IMG/VR virus record: IMGVR_UViG_3300010412_000004
Span: 1-64,000 of that record
From: a virus
Reading direction: 5' to 3' (one strand)
DNA length: 64,000 bases
Part shown: in pieces, positions 16,870 through 27,847 of the stretch
Layout of the letters: each line of letters begins with the position of its first letter
Numbering within the stretch: the stretch's first letter is position 1
The notes under the pieces: model-generated
Told to the model about the DNA's origin: nothing
What the model saw: the letters and a program-made list of their open reading frames with translations, nothing else
Databases searched by the model: none
Translations under genes and position numbers: made by a program

Positions 16870-17076
16870 TTCCTTTTTGAGTTGAGTAAATTTGAGAAAA
16901 GATGCTCCATTAATTTCTATTGATACATTACCATCTTCGATTTTGACCTCAAACATACATCGTGGAAAATATAATTGATGGTTTTCTTTTATCACTCGAG
17001 TTAAGGACATAGGATAGTTAAAGATCTCTACACATCCTTCTCCTACTAAATTGTATCTATTATAGGGCATCTTCAT
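16867..17076 (-). CDS. Hypothetical protein
   Basis: ATGA overlap with dnaX. Confidence 0.5.
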   Translation of the reverse strand: MKMPYNRYNLVGEGCVEIFNYPMSLTRVIKENHQLYFPRCMFEVKIEDGNVSIEINGASFLKFTQLKKE

Positions 17077-18005
17077 AGTTTACATGCCAAATAAAGGTTG
17101 ACAGTTACCCCAGCCAGTTTGCCATGATTGAAACTGGGATCTAAGAATAAGGTTATCATCTCAGCTATTCTATCACTTGGTTTGTTGAGCATCACAGTGG
17201 TTAGATAATTAAGTATACCAACCCTAATTTGTTCCTGCTCTGCATCTACATATTTAAGTAATTTTGCCATCTCTTTAAATTTGTCACCACCAGGAGCGAT
17301 TAATAATTGACATATATCCCTTAAGGAGGTATCTGAGATGTATCCATCTTGGACACCTTTGAGCCTATCTTCAGGTTTAAGATCAATGATTTGATCTAAG
17401 GTTCTAACCGCACATCTACAACTTCCCTCACTCACCCTAGCTATCTCTCTTAATACTTCATCATCTATATCTGCCTTTTCTTTAGAGCATATATCTCTGA
17501 GAAGTTTAATGATTCTAAAGCTAGGTAAGGATTTCATCTCGAAGGTATGACACCTACCTCTAATTGTGTCCAACAACTTTTGAGGATCAGTGGTGCAGAG
17601 AGCAAAGTAGACAAATGAAGGAGGGTGCTCAAGTAAACGTAGGAGGGCGTTTTGGGCATCATTAGTTAGTTTATGACACTCATCCAATATATAGAATTTT
17701 ACATTTCCTCCCATTGGTCTGAAGTTTACTTTCTGTCCTATTTCTCTAATGGTATCTATGCCTCTCGTGTTGGCTGTATCATAAAATTTAAAATCTATTT
17801 CGGCACACCCTAACATAGACTTTATGATTAAAGCCATTGTGGTTTTTCCTGTTCCACTTGGTCCTGTAAACAGAAGAGCATGGGGTAGACCTTTTTCTCT
17901 CTCCATAATAGCCTTTATGGATTTAACCACAGTTTCGTTGCCTATTATATCATCAAGTGTTTTAGGTCTATGTCTAACTTGTAAGCTATACTCTTCTGTA
18001 AACAT
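17073..18005 (-). CDS. dnaX: Clamp loader, DNA polymerase III gamma/tau-like
   Basis: HRPKTLDDIIG, GPSGTGKTT, ILDECHKLT..AQNALL, TIRGRC. Confidence 0.9.
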   Translation of the reverse strand: MFTEEYSLQVRHRPKTLDDIIGNETVVKSIKAIMEREKGLPHALLFTGPSGTGKTTMALIIKSMLGCAEIDFKFYDTANTRGIDTIREIGQKVNFRPMGGNVKFYILDECHKLTNDAQNALLRLLEHPPSFVYFALCTTDPQKLLDTIRGRCHTFEMKSLPSFRIIKLLRDICSKEKADIDDEVLREIARVSEGSCRCAVRTLDQIIDLKPEDRLKGVQDGYISDTSLRDICQLLIAPGGDKFKEMAKLLKYVDAEQEQIRVGILNYLTTVMLNKPSDRIAEMITLFLDPSFNHGKLAGVTVNLYLACKL

Positions 18006-18095
18006 TATAAATCCCTCAAAATTAAAGTCAATAGTGCTTCGATATTCAAACTATTTTTAAAAACTAATGTATTTGTATGCGTTAATTTTTTCCGT

Positions 18096-18548
18096 TTATA
18101 TGAGCCTTCTAATACCTAACAATCTTTCTCTATGATAAGGAGCCACGCTAACTCCATCAGATTGATTCCCACCAAGCACCCAAATTTTGTTTTCTTCTAA
18201 TCCAGAAAAGAATCCAACATGACCTGGAGCATCAAGCACCTCTGGACCTACACTACCATCCCCGCCACCTCTTTTTAGAATAACTACATCGTTTTTGGCC
18301 TCTGCTTTAATAGAGAGTATTGGTATGCCTACTGTTAACCAACTTCGAGCTCTCAGTGATTTAGATCTTGGAAGTCTAAGTAACCAAGCTATATAATTCA
18401 CAAAAGCTGAGCACCATGGCACCTCATCATGTTCTGGCCAATCACCATCAAGTTTGAGCATGGATAGAATTTGAGGATTGTCCTTCTTTCCAGGTATTTC
18501 TTGGATTCCCATAAAACGTAATGCCAAGTCATAGGCTGTTATTTCCAT
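18096..18548 (-). CDS. TIGR02594-like NlpC/P60 peptidoglycan hydrolase (putative endolysin)
   Basis: DEVPWCSAFVN, ARSW, GHVGF, VLGGNQ. Confidence 0.85.
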   Translation of the reverse strand: MEITAYDLALRFMGIQEIPGKKDNPQILSMLKLDGDWPEHDEVPWCSAFVNYIAWLLRLPRSKSLRARSWLTVGIPILSIKAEAKNDVVILKRGGGDGSVGPEVLDAPGHVGFFSGLEENKIWVLGGNQSDGVSVAPYHRERLLGIRRLI

Positions 18549-18614
18549 TATTTAATCCTCCTTGAGAATAAGATCATCTATTTCTACCTTTATAAATTTA
18601 TAGTAATTATTAAA

Positions 18615-19178
18615 TTATTTTTCAAGATAATAATACAACTGCCTTACAAGTCTACAATCATACATGGCGTCATGAAGAGCTGTTTTATCAGGAATTATTC
18701 CACAGGCTTTGAGTACCGTTTCAAGTTTGAAGTTGGGAAGGAGTGATCTTTTATCTGCTAATGCCCATGCCATAATGGACATCATATCAAGATAGGGCCA
18801 CCAGAAGAAAGAGTTGAAGAAGTTGTCACCATGAGTGATCCAAAGTGTTCTACAGAAGTTGTAATCAAATTTGGCATTATATGCGATAAAGAGCATCTTG
18901 TCTTCTTTATTAAATTTGTCTACTCTCTCCTCAAGCCACGCACCAAATAATTCTTTAAGTTCTATTTGGGATAAAGGGAAATCTCTTATTTGTCTATCAG
19001 TATATGGACACAGTTTTACGGCCTCTGGATCTATTTTTGCATCTTTTGGAGGTCTGGCTTTTTCATTGAACATTCCTCTGTATTTACCATCTTCATCATA
19101 GATAGCTGATAACTGCCAAATGTGATAATCCCTATCATTCTTTCCTGTCGTCTCTACGTCTATGAAGCAGAGTTTCAT
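18615..19178 (-). CDS. DEDDh 3'-5' exonuclease (DnaQ-like)
   Basis: DVETTG, AYNAKFD, HDAMYD. Confidence 0.9.
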   Translation of the reverse strand: MKLCFIDVETTGKNDRDYHIWQLSAIYDEDGKYRGMFNEKARPPKDAKIDPEAVKLCPYTDRQIRDFPLSQIELKELFGAWLEERVDKFNKEDKMLFIAYNAKFDYNFCRTLWITHGDNFFNSFFWWPYLDMMSIMAWALADKRSLLPNFKLETVLKACGIIPDKTALHDAMYDCRLVRQLYYYLEK

Positions 19179-19341
19179 CTGATATCTCCTTTATTACCTC
19201 CAAAAGATAGTAGTGAAAATCTCCCTCAGGTCCTACCCAGAAGTAAGACATCATTCTAGGAGCCTTAAGGGAATTTAGGAATTGTATTCTTTCTCTTCCA
19301 GGTTTACCATGTCCTGGATTACCTGCTAAATATAATATCAT
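19135..19341 (-). CDS. Small MI[IL]YxA[GA]-family protein, copy 4
   Basis: MILYLAG...RMMSYF. Confidence 0.7.
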   Translation of the reverse strand: MILYLAGNPGHGKPGRERIQFLNSLKAPRMMSYFWVGPEGDFHYYLLEVIKEISDETLLHRRRDDRKE

Positions 19342-19520
19342 AAGGGTGTAGAAAGAATGCGGCGAATATGATGAGCAATATAATCAATATGGTCATCTAA
19401 CCACTCTGCATATTCTTCTATTACAGCCTTGTCGTCTTGAGTCAAAGGGATATCCTCCTCCTCACAATGACGGTAAAAATCTGCAAGGAGATCCATAAAT
19501 TTTTTCATCCTTATTCCTCC

Positions 19521-22151
19521 TTAATAATTTAAATCATAAATTTTGTTACTCTTTTTACCTACCCATTCCTCTTCTTTCCTAATTACTTCTTCCTTCAAAT
19601 ACCAATTTCCATTAATAGGAGTGAACTCAAACTCCATTTCAAGTGGTACTATTATCCATTTATATTTATCCCTTATATCTTTAGTTGCTACCTGTTCTAT
19701 TGTTTCACATACCATATCTTGTTCTGGTGGGTATGTGTCCGTTATCATACTATCATGTATTTGTCCAGGTTGTCCACTCTCCCATCCCTCTTCTATGGAT
19801 ATTTGGTCAATCTTATTACATGACCAAAGTAGACAATGGAATGCCGTACCTTGAATAGGGGTGTTGATTATGATATTTCTGGTTAAATATCCAGACCTTC
19901 TATGACCAAAGAAAGTTTCTACATATCCTGTTTGTAGATATTCTTTAATTACCTTTTCCTGCCATCTTTTAGTATATTTATATTTGTCCCAGTAGGCTTT
20001 TTCTACTTCTTTACAATGATCCTCAAATCTAGGATATGTACCTATATTTTTTGACATTAGGTGGTCTAACATTGGCTGACCTTCTGTTGTGGTCAGTCCT
20101 CCTTCAACTACATTTCTCCATAGATTTTCAGCACATGCCTTGTACCAAGATCCATAGAGTTGAGGGAATGTCCAATTATTTTTTCCATAGAATCTAACCT
20201 TAGAGTCCACAAGTTTTGGTAGAAGTAGAAATAATTCACAGCATACGTCTCTGTGCATATCCGTACCTTTTTGGTAAAGATATTTTATCCACTCAGGATC
20301 TTCTGTGTAGCACCCAGCTATTCTAACTTCCATGGAGGAATAATCACTCTCTATAAATCTAAAATCCTCCGAGGGTTTAATTCCTGACCTGCAATATTCT
20401 TTTGCTTCCTCATCTCTCACAGGGATATTGTGGATATTAGGATCACTTGAGCTACTTCTAAAAGTTCTAGCTGTTGTAAGATTATAAAAGGGATTGATTT
20501 TGCCCTCGAACTCCTCTTGGAAGAATTGATGGAGGTAGGTGTCTCGTATTTTTTTAAGTTTTCTCCACTTTAGTATTAGATTAGTAAAGTTTGAATTTAT
20601 TGCAGAAAGGGACTCTTCATCAGTAGAGTATCCCTTTTTAGTTTCTCTGGTAGGTTTGTATTTGAGTAGGTCATATAGAAGATATTGGAGGTCTTTGCTA
20701 GAGTTATGATTTATAGGCTTTCCTGTGGAGGTTCTAAATTTATCAGCCTCGTTAGATTTGCTAATTAAACCATCTATCAAATCCATCCTTTTGGTTATGC
20801 CCTCTTTGATATCATTTAGATAGTTTGTGTCTACATTAAATCCTCTTAGTTGCATATGGTTAAAAGTGTGAATGGCATCATGAAATAATTCGTAGGCCTC
20901 TAATAGATGAGGATCTTTTTGTATTGTTGCCTTTTGTCTTAGGGTGAGGCTTTTACAAAATTTGGAATCCAGTCCACAATATAACATTGTTTCGTGAGAA
21001 GGAGCATCTTGAATTTTGTTGTATTCCTCATTTTCTGTTTTAAGGAAAGGTTCAACTTCGTCTTCATAACCTTCTATTCCAAAGTTAATATAGGTTTGAA
21101 ATTTGAGTCCTTTAGTTTCCTGTCTTGAGTCAATTATGTGGGAGGCTATCATTGAGCACCAGTCCACTCCTTTAGGATCACATCCAAGTATTACCTTAGA
21201 CCAGAGCATTTCAAATGCCATATTGTGGGCACTCTTTTTTATTCTGTCTTCTTCCCAAATTTCTATCAGCATTTTAGTTATTATATTAAGCTCTTCATTT
21301 TTCCAATATCCTGGTTTTTGAAAAGGGAAGGAGAAGGTATCTGTATTAGTAGATATACTAGCATAGTATATTTTATGGTCAGGTTTGAATGGTTTTTTGC
21401 CTGTGGTTTCATAATCAATCGCAATAGAAGGTTTATGTATCAATACGTTTCTAAGACTTTCCTCAACTTCATTTAGATTAGTGAGTACTCGAACTTTTTT
21501 TTCCATATTCTCATAATCGGGAAATTTATCTATCTTACTCCATTCTACAGCGTTATCCAAATCTCTAAGATAAGTGGTCCAGAGGTTATCATTCTTTGAG
21601 TCCCTATAAGGAGCCGAAGGGTGATACAGAGGGATTATGTATGATTTAAATTTTTGATCTGGTATATTATATCCTCTCCATCTTGTGATGTTCCTTTTTT
21701 TGAATCTATACATAAAAAAGGATTTGGTCGCCGCACTACCCATCAACCAGATGTATTTAGGTTTAGTATCCTCAATGGCTTTTAATACCCAGGGCCTACA
21801 GAATTTTATCTCCCTCTCTAATGGGGTTCTGTTCTTAGGTGGTCTACAGTTTATGGCATTAATCTTATTACAGTCCTCATGAAGATTAATTCCTCTTTCC
21901 TCGAGCAGGCGTTCAAAAAATTGTCCTACATCCCCTACGAGCTCGTCGTTTAGGGAGTCTTCAGTGGCTCCTGGACTTTCGGCTATTATTAATATATCTC
22001 TGTAACCTTTACCACCCACAGGTATTTTAGGACTTTTTACATTCTTATTCAAACCACATTTATTGCAATCTGGTTCTCCAGGTTTATCGTAAAGTATTTG
22101 GTCCTTGCTCCTAGGAGCTTTTTCTCTTTTGAATTTGAAGAATGTTTTCAT
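19521..22151 (-). CDS. polA: Family A DNA polymerase with N-terminal family-4 uracil-DNA glycosylase-like domain (SPO1-type architecture)
   Basis: UDG: CNKC, AESPG, NCRPP.NRTP, YHPS. Exonuclease: DYET, HNMAFE, YCGLD. Polymerase: DYSSMEVR, R...K....F...YG, QIHDS. Confidence 0.95.
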   Translation of the reverse strand: MKTFFKFKREKAPRSKDQILYDKPGEPDCNKCGLNKNVKSPKIPVGGKGYRDILIIAESPGATEDSLNDELVGDVGQFFERLLEERGINLHEDCNKINAINCRPPKNRTPLEREIKFCRPWVLKAIEDTKPKYIWLMGSAATKSFFMYRFKKRNITRWRGYNIPDQKFKSYIIPLYHPSAPYRDSKNDNLWTTYLRDLDNAVEWSKIDKFPDYENMEKKVRVLTNLNEVEESLRNVLIHKPSIAIDYETTGKKPFKPDHKIYYASISTNTDTFSFPFQKPGYWKNEELNIITKMLIEIWEEDRIKKSAHNMAFEMLWSKVILGCDPKGVDWCSMIASHIIDSRQETKGLKFQTYINFGIEGYEDEVEPFLKTENEEYNKIQDAPSHETMLYCGLDSKFCKSLTLRQKATIQKDPHLLEAYELFHDAIHTFNHMQLRGFNVDTNYLNDIKEGITKRMDLIDGLISKSNEADKFRTSTGKPINHNSSKDLQYLLYDLLKYKPTRETKKGYSTDEESLSAINSNFTNLILKWRKLKKIRDTYLHQFFQEEFEGKINPFYNLTTARTFRSSSSDPNIHNIPVRDEEAKEYCRSGIKPSEDFRFIESDYSSMEVRIAGCYTEDPEWIKYLYQKGTDMHRDVCCELFLLLPKLVDSKVRFYGKNNWTFPQLYGSWYKACAENLWRNVVEGGLTTTEGQPMLDHLMSKNIGTYPRFEDHCKEVEKAYWDKYKYTKRWQEKVIKEYLQTGYVETFFGHRRSGYLTRNIIINTPIQGTAFHCLLWSCNKIDQISIEEGWESGQPGQIHDSMITDTYPPEQDMVCETIEQVATKDIRDKYKWIIVPLEMEFEFTPINGNWYLKEEVIRKEEEWVGKKSNKIYDLNY

Positions 22152-22411
22152 CTCACCGCGCTCAGAGTTTTAATGGATACATATTTAGGAAGAATTATCA
22201 CTTTTACCTTAGGATCCTTAAGTCCTTTTTTTAATTGTTCTACTGTTTTTTTAAGATATTGTATAGGAACATCTTTTGAAAATTGGACTATAATTTTGTC
22301 CTTTGGATAGAGTTTTATTACATCTCCTAAAAGGAGAGAACCATTTAGATCTCTTACTTCGAACTCATTTACTTTTTCATCAATCATTGTCTCTTGTTCT
22401 TCTGATGTCAT
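22148..22411 (-). CDS. Hypothetical protein
   Basis: ORF overlapping the polA start. Confidence 0.55.
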   Translation of the reverse strand: MTSEEQETMIDEKVNEFEVRDLNGSLLLGDVIKLYPKDKIIVQFSKDVPIQYLKKTVEQLKKGLKDPKVKVIILPKYVSIKTLSAVR

Positions 22412-22568
22412 CTTCAGATATCTCCGCCCTTTTGTAATATTTAAGTGTTATTACGGCCTTTTTAGTATAAAAGAAGGCAATAAATCTGTTCTTTATTCCT
22501 TCCTTATATAGAGTTTTTTCCCTTTTGGATTGTAGTCCAGCAGGAACTCCTGCAAAATAGATTATCAT
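22380..22568 (-). CDS. Small MI[IL]YxA[GA]-family protein, copy 3
   Basis: MIIYFAG...NRFIAFF. Confidence 0.7.
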   Translation of the reverse strand: MIIYFAGVPAGLQSKREKTLYKEGIKNRFIAFFYTKKAVITLKYYKRAEISEDDIRRTRDND

Positions 22569-22571
22569 AAC

Positions 22572-23594
22572 TTAAGATGGTAATGCTATAACGTGGTTAA
22601 ACCCTTTTCTGGAGAATTTAGCTACATTCTCTCCAATAACCATTACCGTTGCTTTCTCTAATATTTGACTCAGAAATATTGGATTAATATCAAAGTTAAA
22701 TGAACCTTTGTCCAATTTTTCCACGTCTATAATTTTATTAATCCATCCAATATCTTTCTTTGCCCTTACTCGTATTTGGTTCTTAGATACTTCAATCTTA
22801 ACTTGCTTATCTATATCATGTTTTCCATCCGTCATGAAGGTAATAGAATCAATGTTTGTTTTTAGGTCCATTGGCATTTCTACATCAATCCCTTCTACTT
22901 CTAAATATTTCTCAACTTCAGGATACTCTCCCTCCATGGTTCGTGATGAAAAGGTTACTCCGTCCTCTGTCTTGAAGTGAGCCCATCTGTCCGAAATGTG
23001 GAAGTACTTGAGGTTCTCATAGTTAGTGAGCTCTTTAATATTTCTTGCAGGAATGAGGGTGTCCATTGAGGTTTCTTTATTAAGGGTATATTTGCTAATT
23101 CTTGATTCATCACTACTAACTAAAGAGTCTCCTTTGATTCTCACACAGGTTGCAATTCCAGAAGTCATATCAGTGGAGGCCGAAAACATACATAGGGACA
23201 TACCTTCAAGGAAGTCCTTAGGCAATTCTTCCCATTTTCCTTCAAGGGATCTTAGGTTGAGAAGTTGTATCATTTCTTCTGCCTGCCCTCCAGCCATTAT
23301 AGATATGCCGGCCTCCGTTTTAGAAGTTCTAATAGAGAGCTCGTCCTCCTTTTTTTCCATCGTTACTGTGGCTTCTCCTTGGATACTCATAAGAGTTTTA
23401 TAGAGCTCCTCCGCCGACACACTACATTGGAAGTCTGTTTTGAGAGGATGACTGATACAGATTTCATCATTGTATGTCATTACTTCACTTCCAGTAAAGA
23501 TAAAATGGGTGAACTGCTCAATAATATCTCTTTTAGCCAATCCTGGCTTGACACTTTGAAATACCTTAACTAAGTTAGATTTTTCTGCTATCAT
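22572..23594 (-). CDS. dnaN: DNA polymerase III beta sliding clamp
   Basis: 340 aa; SSDESRIS (ATDGHRLA-like), SRTMEGEYP, INPIFL. Confidence 0.8.
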   Translation of the reverse strand: MIAEKSNLVKVFQSVKPGLAKRDIIEQFTHFIFTGSEVMTYNDEICISHPLKTDFQCSVSAEELYKTLMSIQGEATVTMEKKEDELSIRTSKTEAGISIMAGGQAEEMIQLLNLRSLEGKWEELPKDFLEGMSLCMFSASTDMTSGIATCVRIKGDSLVSSDESRISKYTLNKETSMDTLIPARNIKELTNYENLKYFHISDRWAHFKTEDGVTFSSRTMEGEYPEVEKYLEVEGIDVEMPMDLKTNIDSITFMTDGKHDIDKQVKIEVSKNQIRVRAKKDIGWINKIIDVEKLDKGSFNFDINPIFLSQILEKATVMVIGENVAKFSRKGFNHVIALPS

Positions 23595-23799
23595 TCTTTC
23601 TCTCCTTCTCCTTTGAAAGGTTGAACATTACTCTGTCAAAAGGTTCTCCTGTAAGACCTTCCCAACTTTTTCTTCTAAATTGAAATCCTCCTAGGTCAAG
23701 ATCAAAATAGGAAAAGAGCACATTTCTTTGTTTTCCTTCGGAGGCATTTATATGAGCTTCCCAAAGGTCAGAACCTACAGCCGCGAAATATATTATCAT
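23575..23799 (-). CDS. Small MI[IL]YxA[GA]-family protein, copy 2
   Basis: MIIYFAA...NVLFSYF. Confidence 0.7.
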   Translation of the reverse strand: MIIYFAAVGSDLWEAHINASEGKQRNVLFSYFDLDLGGFQFRRKSWEGLTGEPFDRVMFNLSKEKERKNDSRKI

Positions 23800-24011
23800 G
23801 GGAGTATAATTCCGCCCTTTGTTCTTTTCATAGTATTAAAGGCCTTAACCTTTTCTCCTTTTCTCAAGGCCTTTAATACTTCATTTACTGAGTGTAATTG
23901 TCTTCCATCAGATTGTCTTACTACTACTGCTCCGTTTTTTAAATCTCTACTTATTTTATTTATCAGATTTACTGCATCTATTGTCTCCTGGTCCGAAGGT
24001 TTTTTCATCAT
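23796..24011 (-). CDS. Hypothetical protein
   Basis: aggag RBS; ATGA overlap with the next gene. Confidence 0.55.
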   Translation of the reverse strand: MMKKPSDQETIDAVNLINKISRDLKNGAVVVRQSDGRQLHSVNEVLKALRKGEKVKAFNTMKRTKGGIILP

Positions 24012-24174
24012 GCATCTCCTTTACCTTCAATATATTTACCGCTCCTTTATTATGAAAAAAGGACACCAGGCGGTAATATCCTGGGTAGCCTTTCTTAAAT
24101 ACAAATTCTTTCATCTTCTCCTCAGCTTTAAGATTGTTCATTTGAGGGAAGTTACCTGCTTGGTAGATTATCAT
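23956..24174 (-). CDS. Small MI[IL]YxA[GA]-family protein, copy 1, translationally coupled to dpdA
   Basis: MIIYQAG...RLVSFF; ATGA overlap at 24171-24174. Confidence 0.7.
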   Translation of the reverse strand: MIIYQAGNFPQMNNLKAEEKMKEFVFKKGYPGYYRLVSFFHNKGAVNILKVKEMHDEKTFGPGDNRCSKSDK

Positions 24175-25418
24175 TTGAATAAATCAAATTTTTCTTGTTT
24201 ATGTTGTTTGAAGGCCCAAGGCCACTTTGGCACACTATTTTGTAGGTCTATATAGTACATGATATTGAGCTCATCCCTGAGTTTGTAGCTGTTGGCGAGT
24301 CCTTTTTCTATTACTATTTCTATTTCTCTGGATTTATCTCCCTTTTTGCCTTTAATCCATCTTTCATTCTCTCCAAGTGTATAGTCTCCTGGAACAACTT
24401 TGTATTCTGATTTTCCAAGTTTATATCCTTTTTTATTGAAGTAATCTAAGATGTATAACCGTTCCGCCTTGGAGTAGGTAAGAATATGTTTCCCTTCAAT
24501 CTCCTTCTTTTGAGGAGATCTATCTGATACGGTAACATTGTGAGCATTTCTGGCATAATCAAATTTACCGCCTCTGGTTTTTGGTACACATACGATCCCA
24601 TATTTACCAAATTTAACCCAACTGGTACTGTCAACACTATACCAAGGGTACCTTGTAAGTAATCCTGCCGAAGTAACTGCAAATCCATGAACTTTAACTT
24701 TTGGCATTCCCATGTCATCTGTGAGCATCTCACTCCATATCTTATCTAATCCTTGGTATATCACATTTTCTGGATTAGGTATAATTCCTCCTATGGCAAT
24801 ATAATCATGTCCCCTATCTAGATACATTTTTAACCATTCTGGGGAATTACCAAAGTGCCATACTGGAATAGGTTTTAGTCCTTTGCTTTCCATATATTGT
24901 TGGTTGTACCAAGTTTCTTCTGCATTATTGATCACATCTAGGTTAGCGTAGACTTCTATATAAGGGAGGTATTTTTTGATGAAAAGAACATACTGCCTTC
25001 TATATTTGATATAATGATCAGATTTTAGATAAGAGTAATCATCATTCTTTCTGTCACCAAGGAAACTTCCCATATAGGTATGTGCTCCTCCCTTATGGGA
25101 CCTCATGTGTTTATTATAGAGGCTAGGTGCTCCACTATCTACGAATATTTTAAGGTCTTTTGGAGTAGTTACGGAGTCAGGTTTTAATTGAGATACTTCA
25201 TTTTCTACCGTTCTTATTTTTTCTGGAACTGTTCCTTTTTCCACCATTACCCTCATATCATATTTTTGAATTGTTTTGATGTAATCTCCGGTTCTATCAA
25301 ACCTTATACCAAGGTCTAGTACTCTTTTTACCTCATCAGTACTTGGCCAAATATTACTTCTCCCGGCGTGTTCTCTGGAGAATCCTCTAGGATATATCTT
25401 CATAGTGCTTTTATACAA
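24171..25418 (-). CDS. dpdA: DpdA-like DNA 7-deazaguanine transglycosylase (TGT superfamily)
   Basis: IFVDSGA, YANLDVI, PIPVWH, YIAIGG, KVHGFA, YPWYSVDSTSW; clustered with folE, queD and queE. Confidence 0.85.
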   Translation of the reverse strand: MYKSTMKIYPRGFSREHAGRSNIWPSTDEVKRVLDLGIRFDRTGDYIKTIQKYDMRVMVEKGTVPEKIRTVENEVSQLKPDSVTTPKDLKIFVDSGAPSLYNKHMRSHKGGAHTYMGSFLGDRKNDDYSYLKSDHYIKYRRQYVLFIKKYLPYIEVYANLDVINNAEETWYNQQYMESKGLKPIPVWHFGNSPEWLKMYLDRGHDYIAIGGIIPNPENVIYQGLDKIWSEMLTDDMGMPKVKVHGFAVTSAGLLTRYPWYSVDSTSWVKFGKYGIVCVPKTRGGKFDYARNAHNVTVSDRSPQKKEIEGKHILTYSKAERLYILDYFNKKGYKLGKSEYKVVPGDYTLGENERWIKGKKGDKSREIEIVIEKGLANSYKLRDELNIMYYIDLQNSVPKWPWAFKQHKQEKFDLFK

Positions 25419-26422
25419 TCCAACATATTTTTAATGGCTTGACTTCCATCTAAAATCATTTTATTTTGTAGTTTATTAAGATATTTTCTAAAGTATTTCT
25501 CCTGTTTTTCATCTCTTAATATATTAATGATTTTATCCACACACTCGTCAAAGGTTTTGAATCTAAAAGGTCGTGGATATAATTCTTCATAACTCAGTCT
25601 ATTAGGAACTAAAGGGATACAACCAGACATCACCGATTCCTGCATAGCTATTCCCCAGGTTTCCTGTCTGGAAAAAGATACAGCTATTTTTGATGCCTGT
25701 AGTATATCATAATACTTCTCTTTGGTATTACATATCAACTTAGTTTTTACAAAATCATAATGAGGGAAAATAGGTTTAATTGTCTTCTCTAAGGCGTCAA
25801 AATAGGAGGGTTCTTTTTCAGGATCTAGTCTATGAGGAAATACAATCATATTCATTTTATGGGTATCTACTAACCACTCTGGGTATATTGGCAGACCGGT
25901 AACTGCTATTTTATGACTCAACACTTCTCTTTTTTCCATTAACAATCTTTTATGAAAATCAGTAGCCACAAAAATTTTGTCAACAAGAGTTGTCCATCCT
26001 TTTTCTATATGAGATGCCCAGTAGTCCATCCCCATTCTATGTAGAAAATCATGTTCATCATATGTGCCTGCATGAAGTATTCCACATATATTTATATCCA
26101 ATCTTAAAGCATCTCTAATGTAGGCCAACATTTCAATTCCAGGAAACCATAAATCATGAAATAAAAAGGTATCCTTATCTCTTATTACTCCCTTATCAAT
26201 TAACCTACATATTTCTCTGAGTTGGGCGGCCTTAAATAAGTTCGTTCCTATAATGTCAAGAAAAGATCCTTGCCGTATTTTGTGTGTAATAGGGTCAGGG
26301 TAAATAGTGATATAATCTTTTTCTACCTCGAGCCCATTTGCTTGGAACTCTCTTGGGAACCATTTATTCCACTGAGCAGAGTATCTTTCCTCTAAACTTT
26401 CTATGGGCACATTAATTATCAT
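25400..26422 (-). CDS. GT-B (family 4-like) glycosyltransferase
   Basis: FPHRLDPEK, S..QETWGIAMQES...GC.PLVP. Confidence 0.85.
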   Translation of the reverse strand: MIINVPIESLEERYSAQWNKWFPREFQANGLEVEKDYITIYPDPITHKIRQGSFLDIIGTNLFKAAQLREICRLIDKGVIRDKDTFLFHDLWFPGIEMLAYIRDALRLDINICGILHAGTYDEHDFLHRMGMDYWASHIEKGWTTLVDKIFVATDFHKRLLMEKREVLSHKIAVTGLPIYPEWLVDTHKMNMIVFPHRLDPEKEPSYFDALEKTIKPIFPHYDFVKTKLICNTKEKYYDILQASKIAVSFSRQETWGIAMQESVMSGCIPLVPNRLSYEELYPRPFRFKTFDECVDKIINILRDEKQEKYFRKYLNKLQNKMILDGSQAIKNMLDCIKAL

Positions 26423-26441
26423 AATTCGCCTCTTTGTTTCA

Positions 26442-26478
26442 ATTAAACACTAAACTCATTGAAATTACAAGATAAATT
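26442..26478 (-). promoter_or_regulatory. Promoter of the AATTTATC-TTG family upstream of GT-dpdA
   Basis: AATTTATC TTGTAA-17-TTTAAT. Confidence 0.55.
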
Positions 26479-26485
26479 TTTAGGT

Positions 26486-27847
26486 TTAAATTATTCTTAA
26501 CCTAGCACATATGGCATAGAATATAGCCGCATCTTCTATGGGGAGATGGTAATCTTTAGTATCCTCCTTAATTGCCTCAGCGATCTTCCATCCATTTCTA
26601 TTGCTTAAATATGTCATCATATATTCAATGTAGATACTTTTTAATTTATAAAGTTGAAACCATTTTATATCCTCCTCTTTTATGTCCCTTTTCGTATGTA
26701 TTCTATCAAGCAAAAAAGAGTCAGGCATAAAACTTGGTATTAGTCTCATCGGTCTATTGTTTAGGGTATGTCCTTTGAGGTGAGAGGTTTCATAAATCTT
26801 TGTTCCATGATATACCTGAAAGAATTGACCAAGACCTCCTTCGGTTCCATTTGTTTGTACTCTTCCATAAAGGTCATTCATTTTAAACCCATATTTAGAT
26901 AAGAATTCCCCAGTGGTGTTTAAAGTCTTTAACGTTTCACCAGGATAGAATGTCATGGTTAACCAAAAGATGGGCACATCACACTTCTCAGCCAAATCTA
27001 TGCATCGTGCGACAGGTGACTTACCCATATCACTTCCTAGGTTCTTATCAGCAGTTTCCAGACCTACCTCGATTAATCTTACTCCTGCATCATGAAGTAT
27101 TTTGGTACCATACATAGAGATAAACCTATTTACTGTGGAAACTTCTCCTAAGGCTATGAAATTGAAGCCACCCATTTGGTATGCCCAATGTAATATGTTG
27201 TATGCCCTTTGAGTATCAAAAAAGAAATCTTCATCAGTGAAATGAATATTGTGGTATCCAAAATATTTACACCTTACGAGCATAGTGTGGATTTGTTCTA
27301 AATCCAAAACTATTCTTTTTCTGTTTGTATTTACTGTGGAAGGACAGAAGGAGCAACCTCTTGGACATCCATATGAAGTAAAGAGAGGGTATACCTTTCC
27401 CGAATATTTTCTCAAGTGCATATCACAATCGCTCAACGTGAGGAATCTTAAATATTGATATGTATAAGGATAGTAGAACATTCCATCTTTAATCATATAA
27501 TCTTCCACCTTAAACATATCTAAATCTAGACTTTGGATGAGGGGATAGTATCCAAAAAAGCTGGGTTTAACAGGTAGAAATTTATCAAGCATTTTGCAGA
27601 GTTCGATTTGAGGGTAGGACCATAGAGCTACTAAATAATTATTAGATTTTGGTAGGTCATCTATTCCTGCCATGGTGAAATTTTCTTCTAACCATACAAT
27701 CTCTTCTTCTTTATTCATTAGGTAATAATTGTAGAGTATATAAGGTAAGTAGCAAAAACTACCCCTATTGACTTCAGGAGAGGTTGGGTCAATTATTACT
27801 ATATCCGCCTTAGTAGGGCGTATCCTCCCATTCTGCTCCATTTTCAT
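26486..27847 (-). CDS. Radical SAM protein, probable B12-binding class
   Basis: TSYGCPRGCSFC, IHFTDEDF, IEVGLET, YPGET; ~150 aa N-terminal domain. Confidence 0.85.
   Translation of the reverse strand: MKMEQNGRIRPTKADIVIIDPTSPEVNRGSFCYLPYILYNYYLMNKEEEIVWLEENFTMAGIDDLPKSNNYLVALWSYPQIELCKMLDKFLPVKPSFFGYYPLIQSLDLDMFKVEDYMIKDGMFYYPYTYQYLRFLTLSDCDMHLRKYSGKVYPLFTSYGCPRGCSFCPSTVNTNRKRIVLDLEQIHTMLVRCKYFGYHNIHFTDEDFFFDTQRAYNILHWAYQMGGFNFIALGEVSTVNRFISMYGTKILHDAGVRLIEVGLETADKNLGSDMGKSPVARCIDLAEKCDVPIFWLTMTFYPGETLKTLNTTGEFLSKYGFKMNDLYGRVQTNGTEGGLGQFFQVYHGTKIYETSHLKGHTLNNRPMRLIPSFMPDSFLLDRIHTKRDIKEEDIKWFQLYKLKSIYIEYMMTYLSNRNGWKIAEAIKEDTKDYHLPIEDAAIFYAICARLRII

What the first reader, a model, noticed from the sequence alone, without database searches (positions are those of the whole stretch)
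19135..24174. Four small MI[IL]YxA[GA] paralogues downstream of dpdA: interchangeable modules of a split transglycosylase?
Seen: four 62-74 aa ORFs share two motifs: MIIYQAG..RLVSFF (23956), MIIYFAA..NVLFSYF (23575), MIIYFAG..NRFIAFF (22380) and MILYLAG..RMMSYF (19135). The first is coupled to dpdA by an ATGA overlap; the others are interleaved with dnaN, polA and the DnaQ-like gene. From my recollection of phage DpdA-like proteins, a (L/I)Y(F/L)AG...LxSY unit forms the first strands of the barrel before the DSGA motif. The 415 aa DpdA here has only a degenerate MKIYPRG at that position. Inference: the barrel is completed in trans by alternative small subunits, which could change sequence or base specificity or regulate the enzyme.
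Basis: partly seen in the sequence, partly recalled or inferred. Interest (0 to 1): 0.8.

Follow-up and report, generated by a model that had tools for sequence, protein, structure and literature searches.

The report
Split phage DpdA with spare barrel-quarters
This uncultured phage's DNA-modifying enzyme DpdA, which swaps guanine for a 7-deazaguanine, appears to lack a working first quarter of its barrel fold, and four small conserved genes scattered among the replication genes each encode a different version of that quarter; I found no paper describing this layout.

Summary
Exactly four ORFs in the 79 kb phage genome begin MI[IL]YxA[GA]. All four lie on the dpdA strand within 5 kb downstream of dpdA; no shuffle gave a match.

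They are homologous to the first beta-alpha-beta-alpha unit ("N-unit") of single-chain phage DpdA, shown by reciprocal, non-circular HMM tests. Across 82 related DpdA loci the unit occurs in three forms: fused at the N-terminus, fused at the C-terminus (a circular permutation), or encoded as separate small genes beside a DpdA core that starts at the DSGA strand.

The window's DpdA models with six confident barrel strands and an 83-residue N-terminus of low confidence that matches no N-unit profile. A complex model places the ATGA-coupled 72 aa protein between the last barrel strand and the DSGA strand (ipSAE 0.87; best control 0.00).

The four window genes belong to four separate, syntenic orthologous groups. 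They are conserved about as well as dnaN and polA.

Trans-completion by the first small protein is well supported. That the other three are interchangeable alternatives, or that they alter specificity, remains inference.

This scan has already reported the same architecture in at least ten other genomes. I found it in no paper and in no cultured phage.

The parts
24171..25418 (-). dpdA core subunit (415 aa): DNA 7-deazaguanine transglycosylase of the TGT fold. The barrel strands run from the DSGAPS strand (residue ~90) onward. A C-terminal beta-rich extension ends in the motif WPWAF.
   Evidence: phrog_887 E 1e-37, matched over residues 90-322. The AF2 model is confident over residues 90-415 and shows six barrel strands. 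VIA-align gives Z 13.9 to TGT and Z 13.4 to bacterial DpdA 7ui4. D94 and D263 are invariant across 56 relatives.
25152..25418 (-). N-terminal extension of DpdA (residues 1-89): probably a vestige of a type-E N-unit. It reads MKIYPRG where relatives have M-x-I-Y-x-A-G, and RTGDYIK where relatives have RLxSFYY.
   Evidence: About 0 bits against all five N-unit profiles. The only similarity is local, to the intact N-unit of P0040 (RVLDLGIRFDRTGDY against RVMELGIRYERLNSF). pLDDT is below 50 over residues 1-83 and no strand is modelled. A similar degenerate extension occurs in the close relatives P0013, P0014, P0019, P0022 and P0032.
23956..24174 (-). Type-E N-unit (72 aa; AGNFPQM ... YRLVSFF): the best candidate for the small subunit that supplies barrel strands beta1 and beta2. 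It is ATGA-coupled to dpdA.
   Evidence: Complex model ipSAE 0.87 in three runs, best control 0.00. Residues 2-4 contact DpdA 260-263 and residues 33-39 contact DpdA 90-93. Its cluster has 18 members, one per locus. 264 library representatives match the type-E profile. Among the top 150, 108 are stand-alone proteins, 17 are fused C-terminally to DpdA cores and 3 are fused N-terminally. 43% identity to the C-terminal segment of the permuted DpdA P0165.
23575..23799 (-). Type-D N-unit (74 aa; FAAVGSDLW ... VLFSYF, followed by a conserved GGFQFRRKSWExLTGxPF tail). It is ATGA-coupled to orf71 and overlaps the start of dnaN by 20 nt.
   Evidence: Relatives P0008-P0011 are 61-68% identical with 33 invariant columns. 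The profile built only from fused N-termini hits it at 8e-4. Orthologues are present in L004, L005 and L006. No fused or longer form was found.
22380..22568 (-). Type-G N-unit (62 aa; FAGVPAG ... RFIAFFY ... TLKYYK). It starts 3 nt after the dnaN stop codon and lies upstream of orf87 and polA.
   Evidence: The profile built only from fused N-termini hits it at 3.4e-7. It resembles the AGVPGGG unit fused to the DpdA of L003, L014, L026 and L032. Orthologues lie directly before polA in L004 and L006, at 48-49% identity.
19135..19341 (-). Type-F N-unit (68 aa; LAGNPGHGKPG ... RMMSYFW). It is ATGA-coupled to orf56 and overlaps the start of the DnaQ-like exonuclease gene by 44 nt.
   Evidence: The profile built only from fused N-termini hits it at 9.9e-7. 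Its cluster has 33 units in 28 loci and also contains the type-A units found upstream of dpdA; type-A-like units are also found fused to the N-terminus of DpdA cores (L023, L037, L051). Orthologues are present in L004 (48%) and L006 (37%).
18615..23594 (-). Context: replication genes interleaved with the small ORFs. These are dnaN (22572-23594), orf87 (22148-22411), polA (19521-22151), orf56 (19338-19508) and a DnaQ/RNase T-like exonuclease (18615-19178).
   Evidence: ORF list, PF00929, and the same gene order in L004 and L006.

Best explanation
DpdA in this phage is a split TIM-barrel enzyme. The 415 aa protein carries six of the eight barrel strands and both conserved aspartates, but its own N-terminal unit has decayed. 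The 72 aa type-E protein, translated by ATGA coupling straight after dpdA, inserts its two strands between the last barrel strand and the DSGA strand. This closes the barrel and supplies the beta1/alpha1 and beta2/alpha2 loops on the DNA-binding face. The other three small proteins (types D, G and F) are old, separately conserved versions of the same two-strand unit, each with its own loop sequence. They most likely dock in the same slot as alternatives, giving enzyme isoforms that differ at the DNA-contacting face. Each of the four is translationally coupled to the gene before it, and D, G and F are embedded in the replication operon (dnaN, polA, dnaQ-like), so they would be made together with the replisome. 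What is shown: the homology, the conservation, the fused/split/permuted series and the modelled interface for type E. What is inferred: that D, G and F use the same slot, and any effect on sequence context or regulation. My estimates for the steps are: homologous real genes 0.97; type E completes the barrel in trans 0.8; D, G and F are interchangeable alternatives about 0.45; they change DNA-context specificity about 0.3.
For: Uniqueness and placement: four matches in the genome, none in shuffles.

Homology: a profile built from small ORFs alone hits the N-termini of 19 DpdA ORFs (4e-12 to 4e-4; best decoy 0.21). A profile built from fused N-termini alone hits 94 small ORFs, including all four of the window.

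Architecture series in 82 loci:
- 41 core-only DpdA, of which 34 have a small unit at iE<1e-3 and 5 more have a divergent one by eye.
- 19 N-terminally fused.
- 9 C-terminally fused (permuted).
- 13 with an N-terminal extension that no N-unit profile recognises, the window among them (9 of these carry small units).

A profile built from the C-terminal segments hits type-E small ORFs specifically (2e-6 to 7e-4; the window ORF at 3.7e-3; best decoy 0.49).

In a library of 1.84 billion representatives, the top 150 type-E matches comprise 108 stand-alone proteins, 17 C-terminal fusions to DpdA cores and 3 N-terminal fusions.

Structure models: the window DpdA has six confident barrel strands, and residues 1-83 have pLDDT below 50. 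The fused L003 DpdA has eight strands, the first two lying in the N-unit.

Complex: ipSAE 0.87 in all three runs, best control 0.00, at least 93% contact agreement between runs, partner pLDDT at least 82. This mark was reached by 58 of 80 solved complexes and 2 of 110 mismatched pairs; these counts hold only roughly because I used my own alignments. The contacts match barrel closure: beta1 with residues 260-263 and beta2 with residues 90-93.

Selection: the four types sit in four different clusters with about one member per locus. Gene order is conserved in L004 and L006. Identities of 35-49% compare with dnaN at 47% and polA at 42-45%.

[quoted passage not shown] Phage DpdAs are motif-specific (abstracts of PMC7544227 and PMC10484667).
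Against: Only type E was modelled with the core, and the core's residues 1-83 were cut off for that job, so competition from the enzyme's own N-terminus was not tested. Halves of a split protein can pass a complex model through likeness to solved single-chain TGT structures, so the pass shows compatibility rather than binding. The structural alignments of the full model start at residues 1-2, so I cannot exclude that the MKIYPRG segment lies near the beta1 position. The degenerate extension is conserved in a subclade, which suggests it has some function. In the fused L003 model the N-unit has a pLDDT of only about 50. Fifteen of 19 phages with a cis-fused unit still carry extra small units, so the extras must either compete with a tethered unit or do something else. 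No fused counterpart of type D was found. There is no expression or protein evidence.
Confidence: 0.6

Rival explanations
1. Only the type-E protein is a DpdA subunit. Types D, G and F descend from the same unit but have taken on other roles. They might dock on replisome proteins encoded nearby, tether other domains, or act as competitive regulators or inhibitors of DpdA assembly, either the phage's own or that of a competing phage.
For: Type E alone has C-terminal fusion partners, and the nine permuted loci carry no extra small units. Type D has a strongly conserved extra tail (GGFQFRRKSWExLTGxPF) and no fused form. In L004 the type-G unit is fused to a DUF4326 domain. In the window, L004 and L006, G and F are translationally coupled to polA, dnaQ or the clamp-loader gene. 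Phages with a cis-fused unit still keep extra units.
Against: The residues shared by all four paralogues (positions 1-7 and the RLxSFF-like strand) are the ones that contact the core in the model. Units resembling types G and F/A are found fused to the N-terminus of DpdA cores in other phages. A 60-residue two-strand unit is unlikely to be stable alone, and no other partner with an open barrel was found in this genome (one DpdA match only).
Confidence: 0.27
2. The window's DpdA is complete in cis: its divergent 89-residue N-terminus still supplies the two strands. The small proteins would then be accessory factors that bind elsewhere, or only transiently.
For: The extension begins MKIY and is conserved in length and in an RTG[DN][HY]W-like motif among close relatives. 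Structural alignments of the model begin at residues 1-2. The alignment used for the model is shallow over this region.
Against: About 0 bits against every N-unit profile. No strand is modelled and pLDDT is below 50 over residues 1-83. The hydrophobic beta2 motif is replaced by T-G-D. The closest large relative (L004, 62% identical core) has no extension at all yet carries the same four small genes.
Confidence: 0.1
3. The small ORFs are non-functional leftovers of partial duplications of the dpdA 5' end, or are gene-calling artefacts.
For: They are short, have no Pfam or PHROG match, lack a Shine-Dalgarno sequence of their own, and have tails that run into the next gene.
Against: Four distinct orthologous groups are kept intact and in the same order in phages whose essential genes are only 42-47% identical. 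The survey found 148 matches (domains at iE<1e-3: small ORFs plus fused units) against 0 decoy matches, with every stand-alone unit on the dpdA strand. 128 library representatives match type E at E<=1e-10. Natural fusions to DpdA exist.
Confidence: 0.03

Closest known systems
Single-chain phage DpdA1 (Escherichia phages CAjan and 9g, Seuratvirus/Nonagvirus; phrog_887)
   Same: It is the best database match of the core (31-32% identity over residues 75-332; phrog_887). It has the same DSGA and YPWYS-x-DS motifs. The CAjan protein begins with the same unit (MNVFMAAV...ILESYHY) that the small ORFs encode.
   Different: CAjan DpdA is one chain of 306 aa, and neither small neighbour of its gene resembles the unit. 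Here the unit is decayed in the enzyme and is encoded four more times as separate genes. The core also has an insertion after DSGAPS and a C-terminal extension of about 90 residues that CAjan lacks.
Bacterial DpdA of the Dpd system (Salmonella Montevideo, PDB 7ui4; PMC10164549)
   Same: The same TIM-barrel transglycosylase fold (Z 13.4, 257 residues aligned, rmsd 3.8). The paper assigns DNA binding and possible sequence recognition to the beta1/alpha1 and beta2/alpha2 insertions, which are the parts that the small proteins encode.
   Different: It is a single chain, monomeric, has a CXCX2CX22H zinc site and works with the DpdB ATPase. The window protein has a single cysteine, so it has no such site. 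I looked for no DpdB and saw none among the ORFs of 17000-27000.
Eukaryotic tRNA-guanine transglycosylase heterodimer QTRT1/QTRT2 (own knowledge; QTRT1 structures 6h45 and 7nq4 are)
   Same: A TGT-family enzyme built from two different polypeptides that derive from one ancestor.
   Different: Both QTRT chains are full barrels that dimerise. Here one barrel is shared between a six-strand chain and a two-strand chain.
Exchangeable specificity subunits of Type I restriction-modification systems (HsdS; own knowledge). It may work like this, but it is not a member.
   Same: One catalytic machine and several alternative small specificity-bearing parts encoded nearby. This is the working model for the four units.
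   Different: The fold and chemistry are unrelated, and here exchange of parts and a change in specificity are not shown.
Dissected or permuted (beta/alpha)8 barrels made in the laboratory, such as the HisF half-barrels
   Same: Barrel fragments can fold and reassemble, and barrels tolerate circular permutation. This makes the natural series seen here physically plausible.
   Different: Those are engineered halves. This is a natural 6+2 split with several paralogous two-strand pieces, alongside natural permuted forms.

Membership tests
TGT/DpdA transglycosylase superfamily (the 415 aa core) | TIM-barrel fold of the TGT type | tested here: met
   VIA-align Z 13.9 (253 residues aligned, rmsd 4.1) to QTRT1 6h45 and Z 13.4 to DpdA 7ui4. 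Only six barrel strands are modelled with confidence.
TGT/DpdA transglycosylase superfamily (the 415 aa core) | Sequence membership in the phage DpdA family | tested here: met
   phrog_887 E 1.2e-37 and phrog_7068 E 1.7e-15. No Pfam match at E<=1.
TGT/DpdA transglycosylase superfamily (the 415 aa core) | Two conserved aspartates (the DSG motif and the later S-x-DS strand) at the catalytic face | tested here: met
   D94 and D263 are invariant in 56 relatives. Their catalytic roles are taken from the TGT and DpdA literature and were not tested.
TGT/DpdA transglycosylase superfamily (the 415 aa core) | A complete eight-stranded barrel in one chain | tested here: not met
   Residues 1-83 have pLDDT below 50 and no strands. 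They score about 0 bits against the N-unit profiles. This rests on a model and is not a measurement.
Bacterial DpdA (bDpdA) subfamily | Structural zinc site CXCX2CX22H | tested here: not met
   The protein has one cysteine (sequence). The motif is described in PMC10164549.
DpdA N-terminal (beta/alpha)2 unit (the four small ORFs) | Motif 1 (M-x-h-[YF]-x-A-[GA]) at the start and motif 2 (R-L-x-S-[YF]-[YF]-like) 25-35 residues later | tested here: met
   Alignments.
DpdA N-terminal (beta/alpha)2 unit (the four small ORFs) | Significant profile similarity to the N-termini of single-chain DpdA, tested without circularity | tested here: met
   A profile built only from fused N-termini gives 3.4e-7 (G), 9.9e-7 (F), 7e-4 (E) and 8e-4 (D), with a best decoy of 0.45.
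DpdA N-terminal (beta/alpha)2 unit (the four small ORFs) | Encoded beside dpdA on the same strand | tested here: met
   All four lie within 5 kb downstream of dpdA. In 82 loci every stand-alone unit is on the dpdA strand, and most are immediately adjacent to dpdA.
DpdA N-terminal (beta/alpha)2 unit (the four small ORFs) | Physically completes the DpdA barrel | tested here: inconclusive
   Type E only: the complex model scores 0.87 against 0.00 for the best control, with the expected strand pairing. This is a prediction that may pass by likeness to single-chain TGT.

The most novel reading that the evidence does not exclude
One catalytic DpdA core works with four ancient, separately conserved quarter-barrel subunits. 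Each is translationally coupled to the gene before it, and three of them sit among the replisome genes (dnaN, polA, dnaQ). Each replaces the two loops that contact DNA next to the flipped guanine. The phage would thus make several transglycosylase isoforms with different sequence contexts and so cover far more of its guanines than a single motif-bound DpdA. This would be a natural case of enzyme specificity being diversified by swapping barrel strands between polypeptides.
Probability: 0.3. Interest if true: 0.9.

Novelty: new variant of a known kind. Interest (0 to 1): 0.77.

Why it matters
DpdA is the signature enzyme of 7-deazaguanine DNA modification in phages, and every version characterised so far is a single chain. 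A natural 6+2 split of a TIM barrel would be an unusual example of barrel modularity in nature. Here it is seen alongside N-fused and circularly permuted versions and several conserved alternative two-strand pieces. It would also give a concrete, testable handle on how these enzymes choose their DNA motifs. On the practical side, it warns that 'truncated' DpdA genes in metagenomes are probably not pseudogenes, and that expressing them alone may fail. Cui et al. (PMC10516641) report that attempts to test some DpdA subfamilies in E. coli were unsuccessful; whether that failure is related is unknown.

Tried and rejected
- Pfam and PHROGs gave no credible family for any of the four small ORFs.
- blastn of the region against cultured phages found nothing.
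- tblastn of type-E, type-F and type-B units against 50,697 phage records found nothing at E<=1. No isolate with this layout is therefore in hand.
I took genomic context from IMG/VR loci instead.
- Sequence search of the PDB gave only a weak match to 7ui4.
- Foldseek and VIA confirmed the TGT fold. Their first-to-last ranges could not show whether the enzyme's own N-terminus occupies the beta1 position.
- A search for longer (fused) forms of type D found none.
- The ESM Atlas gave only unnamed, mostly viral clusters at scores of 0.85, below the level at which a hit is more than a lead.
- Phase-variable simple repeats, reported by earlier notes for other genomes, are absent here; only A6/T6 runs occur.
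- A DNA-level repeat or regulatory motif as the cause of the shared start is rejected: the second motif is conserved as protein with different codons, and the orthologues are 35-49% identical as proteins.
- Literature searches for a split, permuted or heteromeric DpdA returned nothing relevant.
- Read laying: contigs from two RNA libraries of different studies cover 22758-22945, 23824-24082 and 24144-24297 without differences. Contigs from RNA libraries do not prove transcription, and stretches without cover say nothing.

Full report
**What is there.** The window is part of a 79,012-base IMG/VR virus record. On the minus strand, dpdA (24171-25418, 415 aa) is followed by four small ORFs:
- 23956-24174 (72 aa)
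- 23575-23799 (74 aa)
- 22380-22568 (62 aa)
- 19135-19341 (68 aa)

The pattern MI[IL]Y.A[GA] occurs four times in all six frames of the genome. Each occurrence is at the first codon of one of these ORFs, and 200 shuffles gave none. All four also share a second motif, a hydrophobic strand ending [SA]-[FY]-F, 25-35 residues further on. Three of them start with an ATGA overlap onto the stop codon of the preceding gene; the fourth starts 3 nt after the dnaN stop. Their 3' ends overlap the next gene by 20-56 nt. The apparent C-terminal similarity between them is the AAGGAG-plus-ATG signal of that next gene.

**What the small ORFs are.** Pfam and PHROGs do not recognise them. The experimentally studied DpdA of phage CAjan begins MNVFMAAV...(30)...ILESYHY...(15)...FLDSGAF. 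A related viral contig (L003) has a 342 aa DpdA beginning MIYFAGVPGG...RLWSYYW...FLDSGAF. The two motifs of the small ORFs are thus the first two strands of single-chain DpdA, which lie before the DSGA strand. From my own knowledge, Z. mobilis TGT has the same order: AFMPVGT, ILGNTYH, ILTDSGG.

I tested this without circularity on the ORFs of 82 DpdA loci (81 from IMG/VR plus this genome):
- A profile built only from stand-alone small ORFs hits the N-termini of 19 DpdA ORFs (4e-12 to 4e-4; best reversed-sequence decoy 0.21).
- A profile built only from fused DpdA N-termini hits 94 small ORFs, including all four of the window (3.4e-7, 9.9e-7, 7e-4 and 8e-4; best decoy 0.45).

I call this beta-alpha-beta-alpha piece the N-unit.

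**The architecture series.** Most close relatives of this DpdA start directly at the DSGA strand, for example MSLFVDSGAPS. In the 82 loci the forms are as follows:
- 41 DpdAs are core-only. Of these, 34 have at least one small N-unit gene at iE<1e-3, 5 more have a divergent one immediately downstream by eye, and 2 have none (one of those two is a truncated ORF).
- 19 have the unit fused at the N-terminus.
- 9 have it fused at the C-terminus, after the usual WPW-x-F end. These are circularly permuted barrels.
- 13, including the window, have an N-terminal extension that no profile recognises.

A profile built only from the nine C-terminal segments hits type-E small ORFs, and only those (2e-6 to 7e-4; the window's 23956 ORF at 3.7e-3; best decoy 0.49). 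This matches the gene order, in which the core is followed by type E.

A type-E profile searched against 1.84 billion representative proteins found 264 matches at E<=1e-3 and 128 at E<=1e-10. Of the best 150, 108 are stand-alone proteins of 100 aa or less, 21 are longer proteins without a DpdA core, 17 are fused to the C-terminus of a DpdA core, 3 are fused to the N-terminus, and one has an ambiguous position. Among the 21 without a core, one (P0254) is a repeat-protein false positive. These natural fusions are the strongest independent argument that the type-E protein and the core form one barrel.

**The window's own enzyme.** AlphaFold2, run with 56 relatives, models residues 90-415 with high confidence and six barrel strands. 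Residues 1-83 fall below pLDDT 50 and contain no strand. The fused L003 enzyme models with eight strands, the first two in its N-unit, although that part reaches only pLDDT of about 50. The window's first 92 residues score about 0 bits against all five N-unit profiles. The only trace is a local match to the intact unit of relative P0040, in which the strand motif RLNSFYY is replaced by RTGDYIK. Close relatives carry similar degenerate extensions, beginning MKLYYPH, MKGYLKG or MNIYMTG. The extension therefore looks like a decayed type-E unit, but its conservation suggests some remaining role. The structural alignments begin at model residues 1-2, so I cannot exclude that it lies near the beta1 position.

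**The complex model.** I submitted DpdA residues 84-415 with residues 1-60 of the 23956 protein, each with its own alignment. The score was ipSAE 0.87 in all three runs against 0.00 for the best of three controls. The runs agreed in at least 93% of contacts and the partner's pLDDT was at least 82. This mark was reached by 58 of 80 solved complexes and by 2 of 110 mismatched pairs in the tool's calibration; those counts hold only roughly because I used my own alignments. Partner residues 2-4 contact DpdA 260-263, the last barrel strand, which carries D263. Partner residues 33-39 contact DpdA 90-93, the strand leading into DSGA. This is the beta8-beta1-beta2-beta3 order of a closed barrel. The caveat is that pieces of a split protein can pass through likeness to solved single-chain TGTs, so the result shows compatibility and not binding.

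**The four are not recent copies.** Clustering 122 stand-alone units gives large groups with about one member per locus. The four window ORFs fall into four different groups:
- E: 18 units in 18 loci
- D: 10 units in 10 loci
- G: 3 units
- F together with the type-A units found upstream of dpdA: 33 units in 28 loci

The order is the same in the window, L004 and L006: radical SAM, glycosyltransferase, dpdA, E, D, dnaN, G, polA, F, then dnaQ or the clamp loader. The small proteins are 35-49% identical between these phages, about the same as dnaN (47%), polA (42-45%) and the clamp loader (42-44%). That argues for purifying selection on each of them.

Each type has its own conserved loop after strand 1: AGNFPQM, AAVGSDLW, AGVPAG and AGNPGHGK. 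The residues shared by all types are the ones that contact the core in the model. [quoted passage not shown] Phage DpdAs are known to be motif-specific (abstracts of PMC7544227 and PMC10484667). This is the basis for reading D, G and F as alternative modules that change the DNA-contacting face. It is an inference.

**What speaks against the simple 'missing piece' reading.** Fifteen of 19 phages with a cis-fused unit still carry one to three extra small units, whereas the nine permuted ones carry none. Some enzymes have two units in tandem at the N-terminus (L016, L078). Type D has a conserved extra tail and no fused form. In L004 the type-G unit is fused to a DUF4326 domain. The extra units must therefore either compete with a resident unit or serve another function, such as tethering or regulation. 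I give that rival 0.27.

**Comparison with what is known.** The core is a DpdA1-like member of the TGT/DpdA superfamily. It matches phrog_887, is 31-32% identical to Seuratvirus DpdA, and has Z 13-14 to TGT and to 7ui4. It lacks the bacterial zinc site, having only one cysteine. Papers on DpdA subfamilies and structure do not mention truncated, split or permuted forms, and no cultured phage in the collection has a match to the units.

Within this scan the same architecture has been reported before in at least ten other genomes. Some of those notes describe tandem arrays with slippery repeats; I found none here. Three things are particular to this window:
- The four units are dispersed through the replication operon, in conserved synteny.
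- A vestigial unit is still attached to the enzyme.
- The C-terminally fused, permuted relatives tie type E to the core.

**Ecology and expression.** Near-identical DNA occurs in marine sediment, mangrove, soil and sludge metagenomes of seven studies. Contigs from two RNA libraries of different studies cover parts of the region, including the dpdA/type-E junction, but this does not prove transcription.

**Verdict.** The split-enzyme reading is well supported for the ATGA-coupled unit. Interchangeability and any specificity change by the other three remain open. Relative to the literature this is a new variant of a known enzyme family.

Noticed in passing
L004:14394-14828: In the closest large relative, the type-G N-unit is fused in frame to a DUF4326 domain (PF14216, E 1e-19), directly upstream of polA. 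If the unit docks on DpdA, this would tether an unknown domain to the enzyme.
   Followed up: partly
L016:8972-10138; L078:9695-10906; L069:9797-11727: Two DpdA genes (L016, L078) carry two N-units in tandem at the N-terminus. One contig (L069) has two full-length dpdA paralogues in tandem, each with its own unit.
   Followed up: no
window 25152-25418 (DpdA residues 1-89): The degenerate N-terminal extension keeps a motif (R-T-G-[DN]-[HY]-[WI]) in several close relatives (P0013, P0019, P0022). It may therefore have acquired a function of its own.
   Followed up: partly
P0228 (179 aa), P0265 (253 aa), P0207 (741 aa): Some type-E units are followed by additional sequence that is not a DpdA core, or by a much longer protein after the core. 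I did not identify these extra parts.
   Followed up: no
window 19178-19200, 22411-22430, 24011-24030 (minus strand, 3' ends of the small ORFs): The genes downstream of three of the small ORFs (types E, G and F) carry AGGAG/GGAG Shine-Dalgarno-like sequences inside the small ORF. The small ORFs themselves have none and rely on stop-start coupling.
   Followed up: partly
window 25400-27847: A GT-B-like glycosyltransferase (weak PF00534 match) overlaps the dpdA start, and a 453 aa radical SAM protein (PF04055) lies upstream. Both are conserved in the same order in L004-L007, which suggests a further-modified 7-deazaguanine.
   Followed up: no
whole stretch 19100-25450: Near-identical DNA is present in marine sediment, mangrove, soil and sludge metagenomes from seven studies (2020-2025).
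   Followed up: partly
P0254 (777 aa): A repeat protein with at least 14 copies of a unit of about 55 residues matches the type-E profile by its RGWFRCDTWFHHDY-like repeat. I treated it as a false positive.
   Followed up: no
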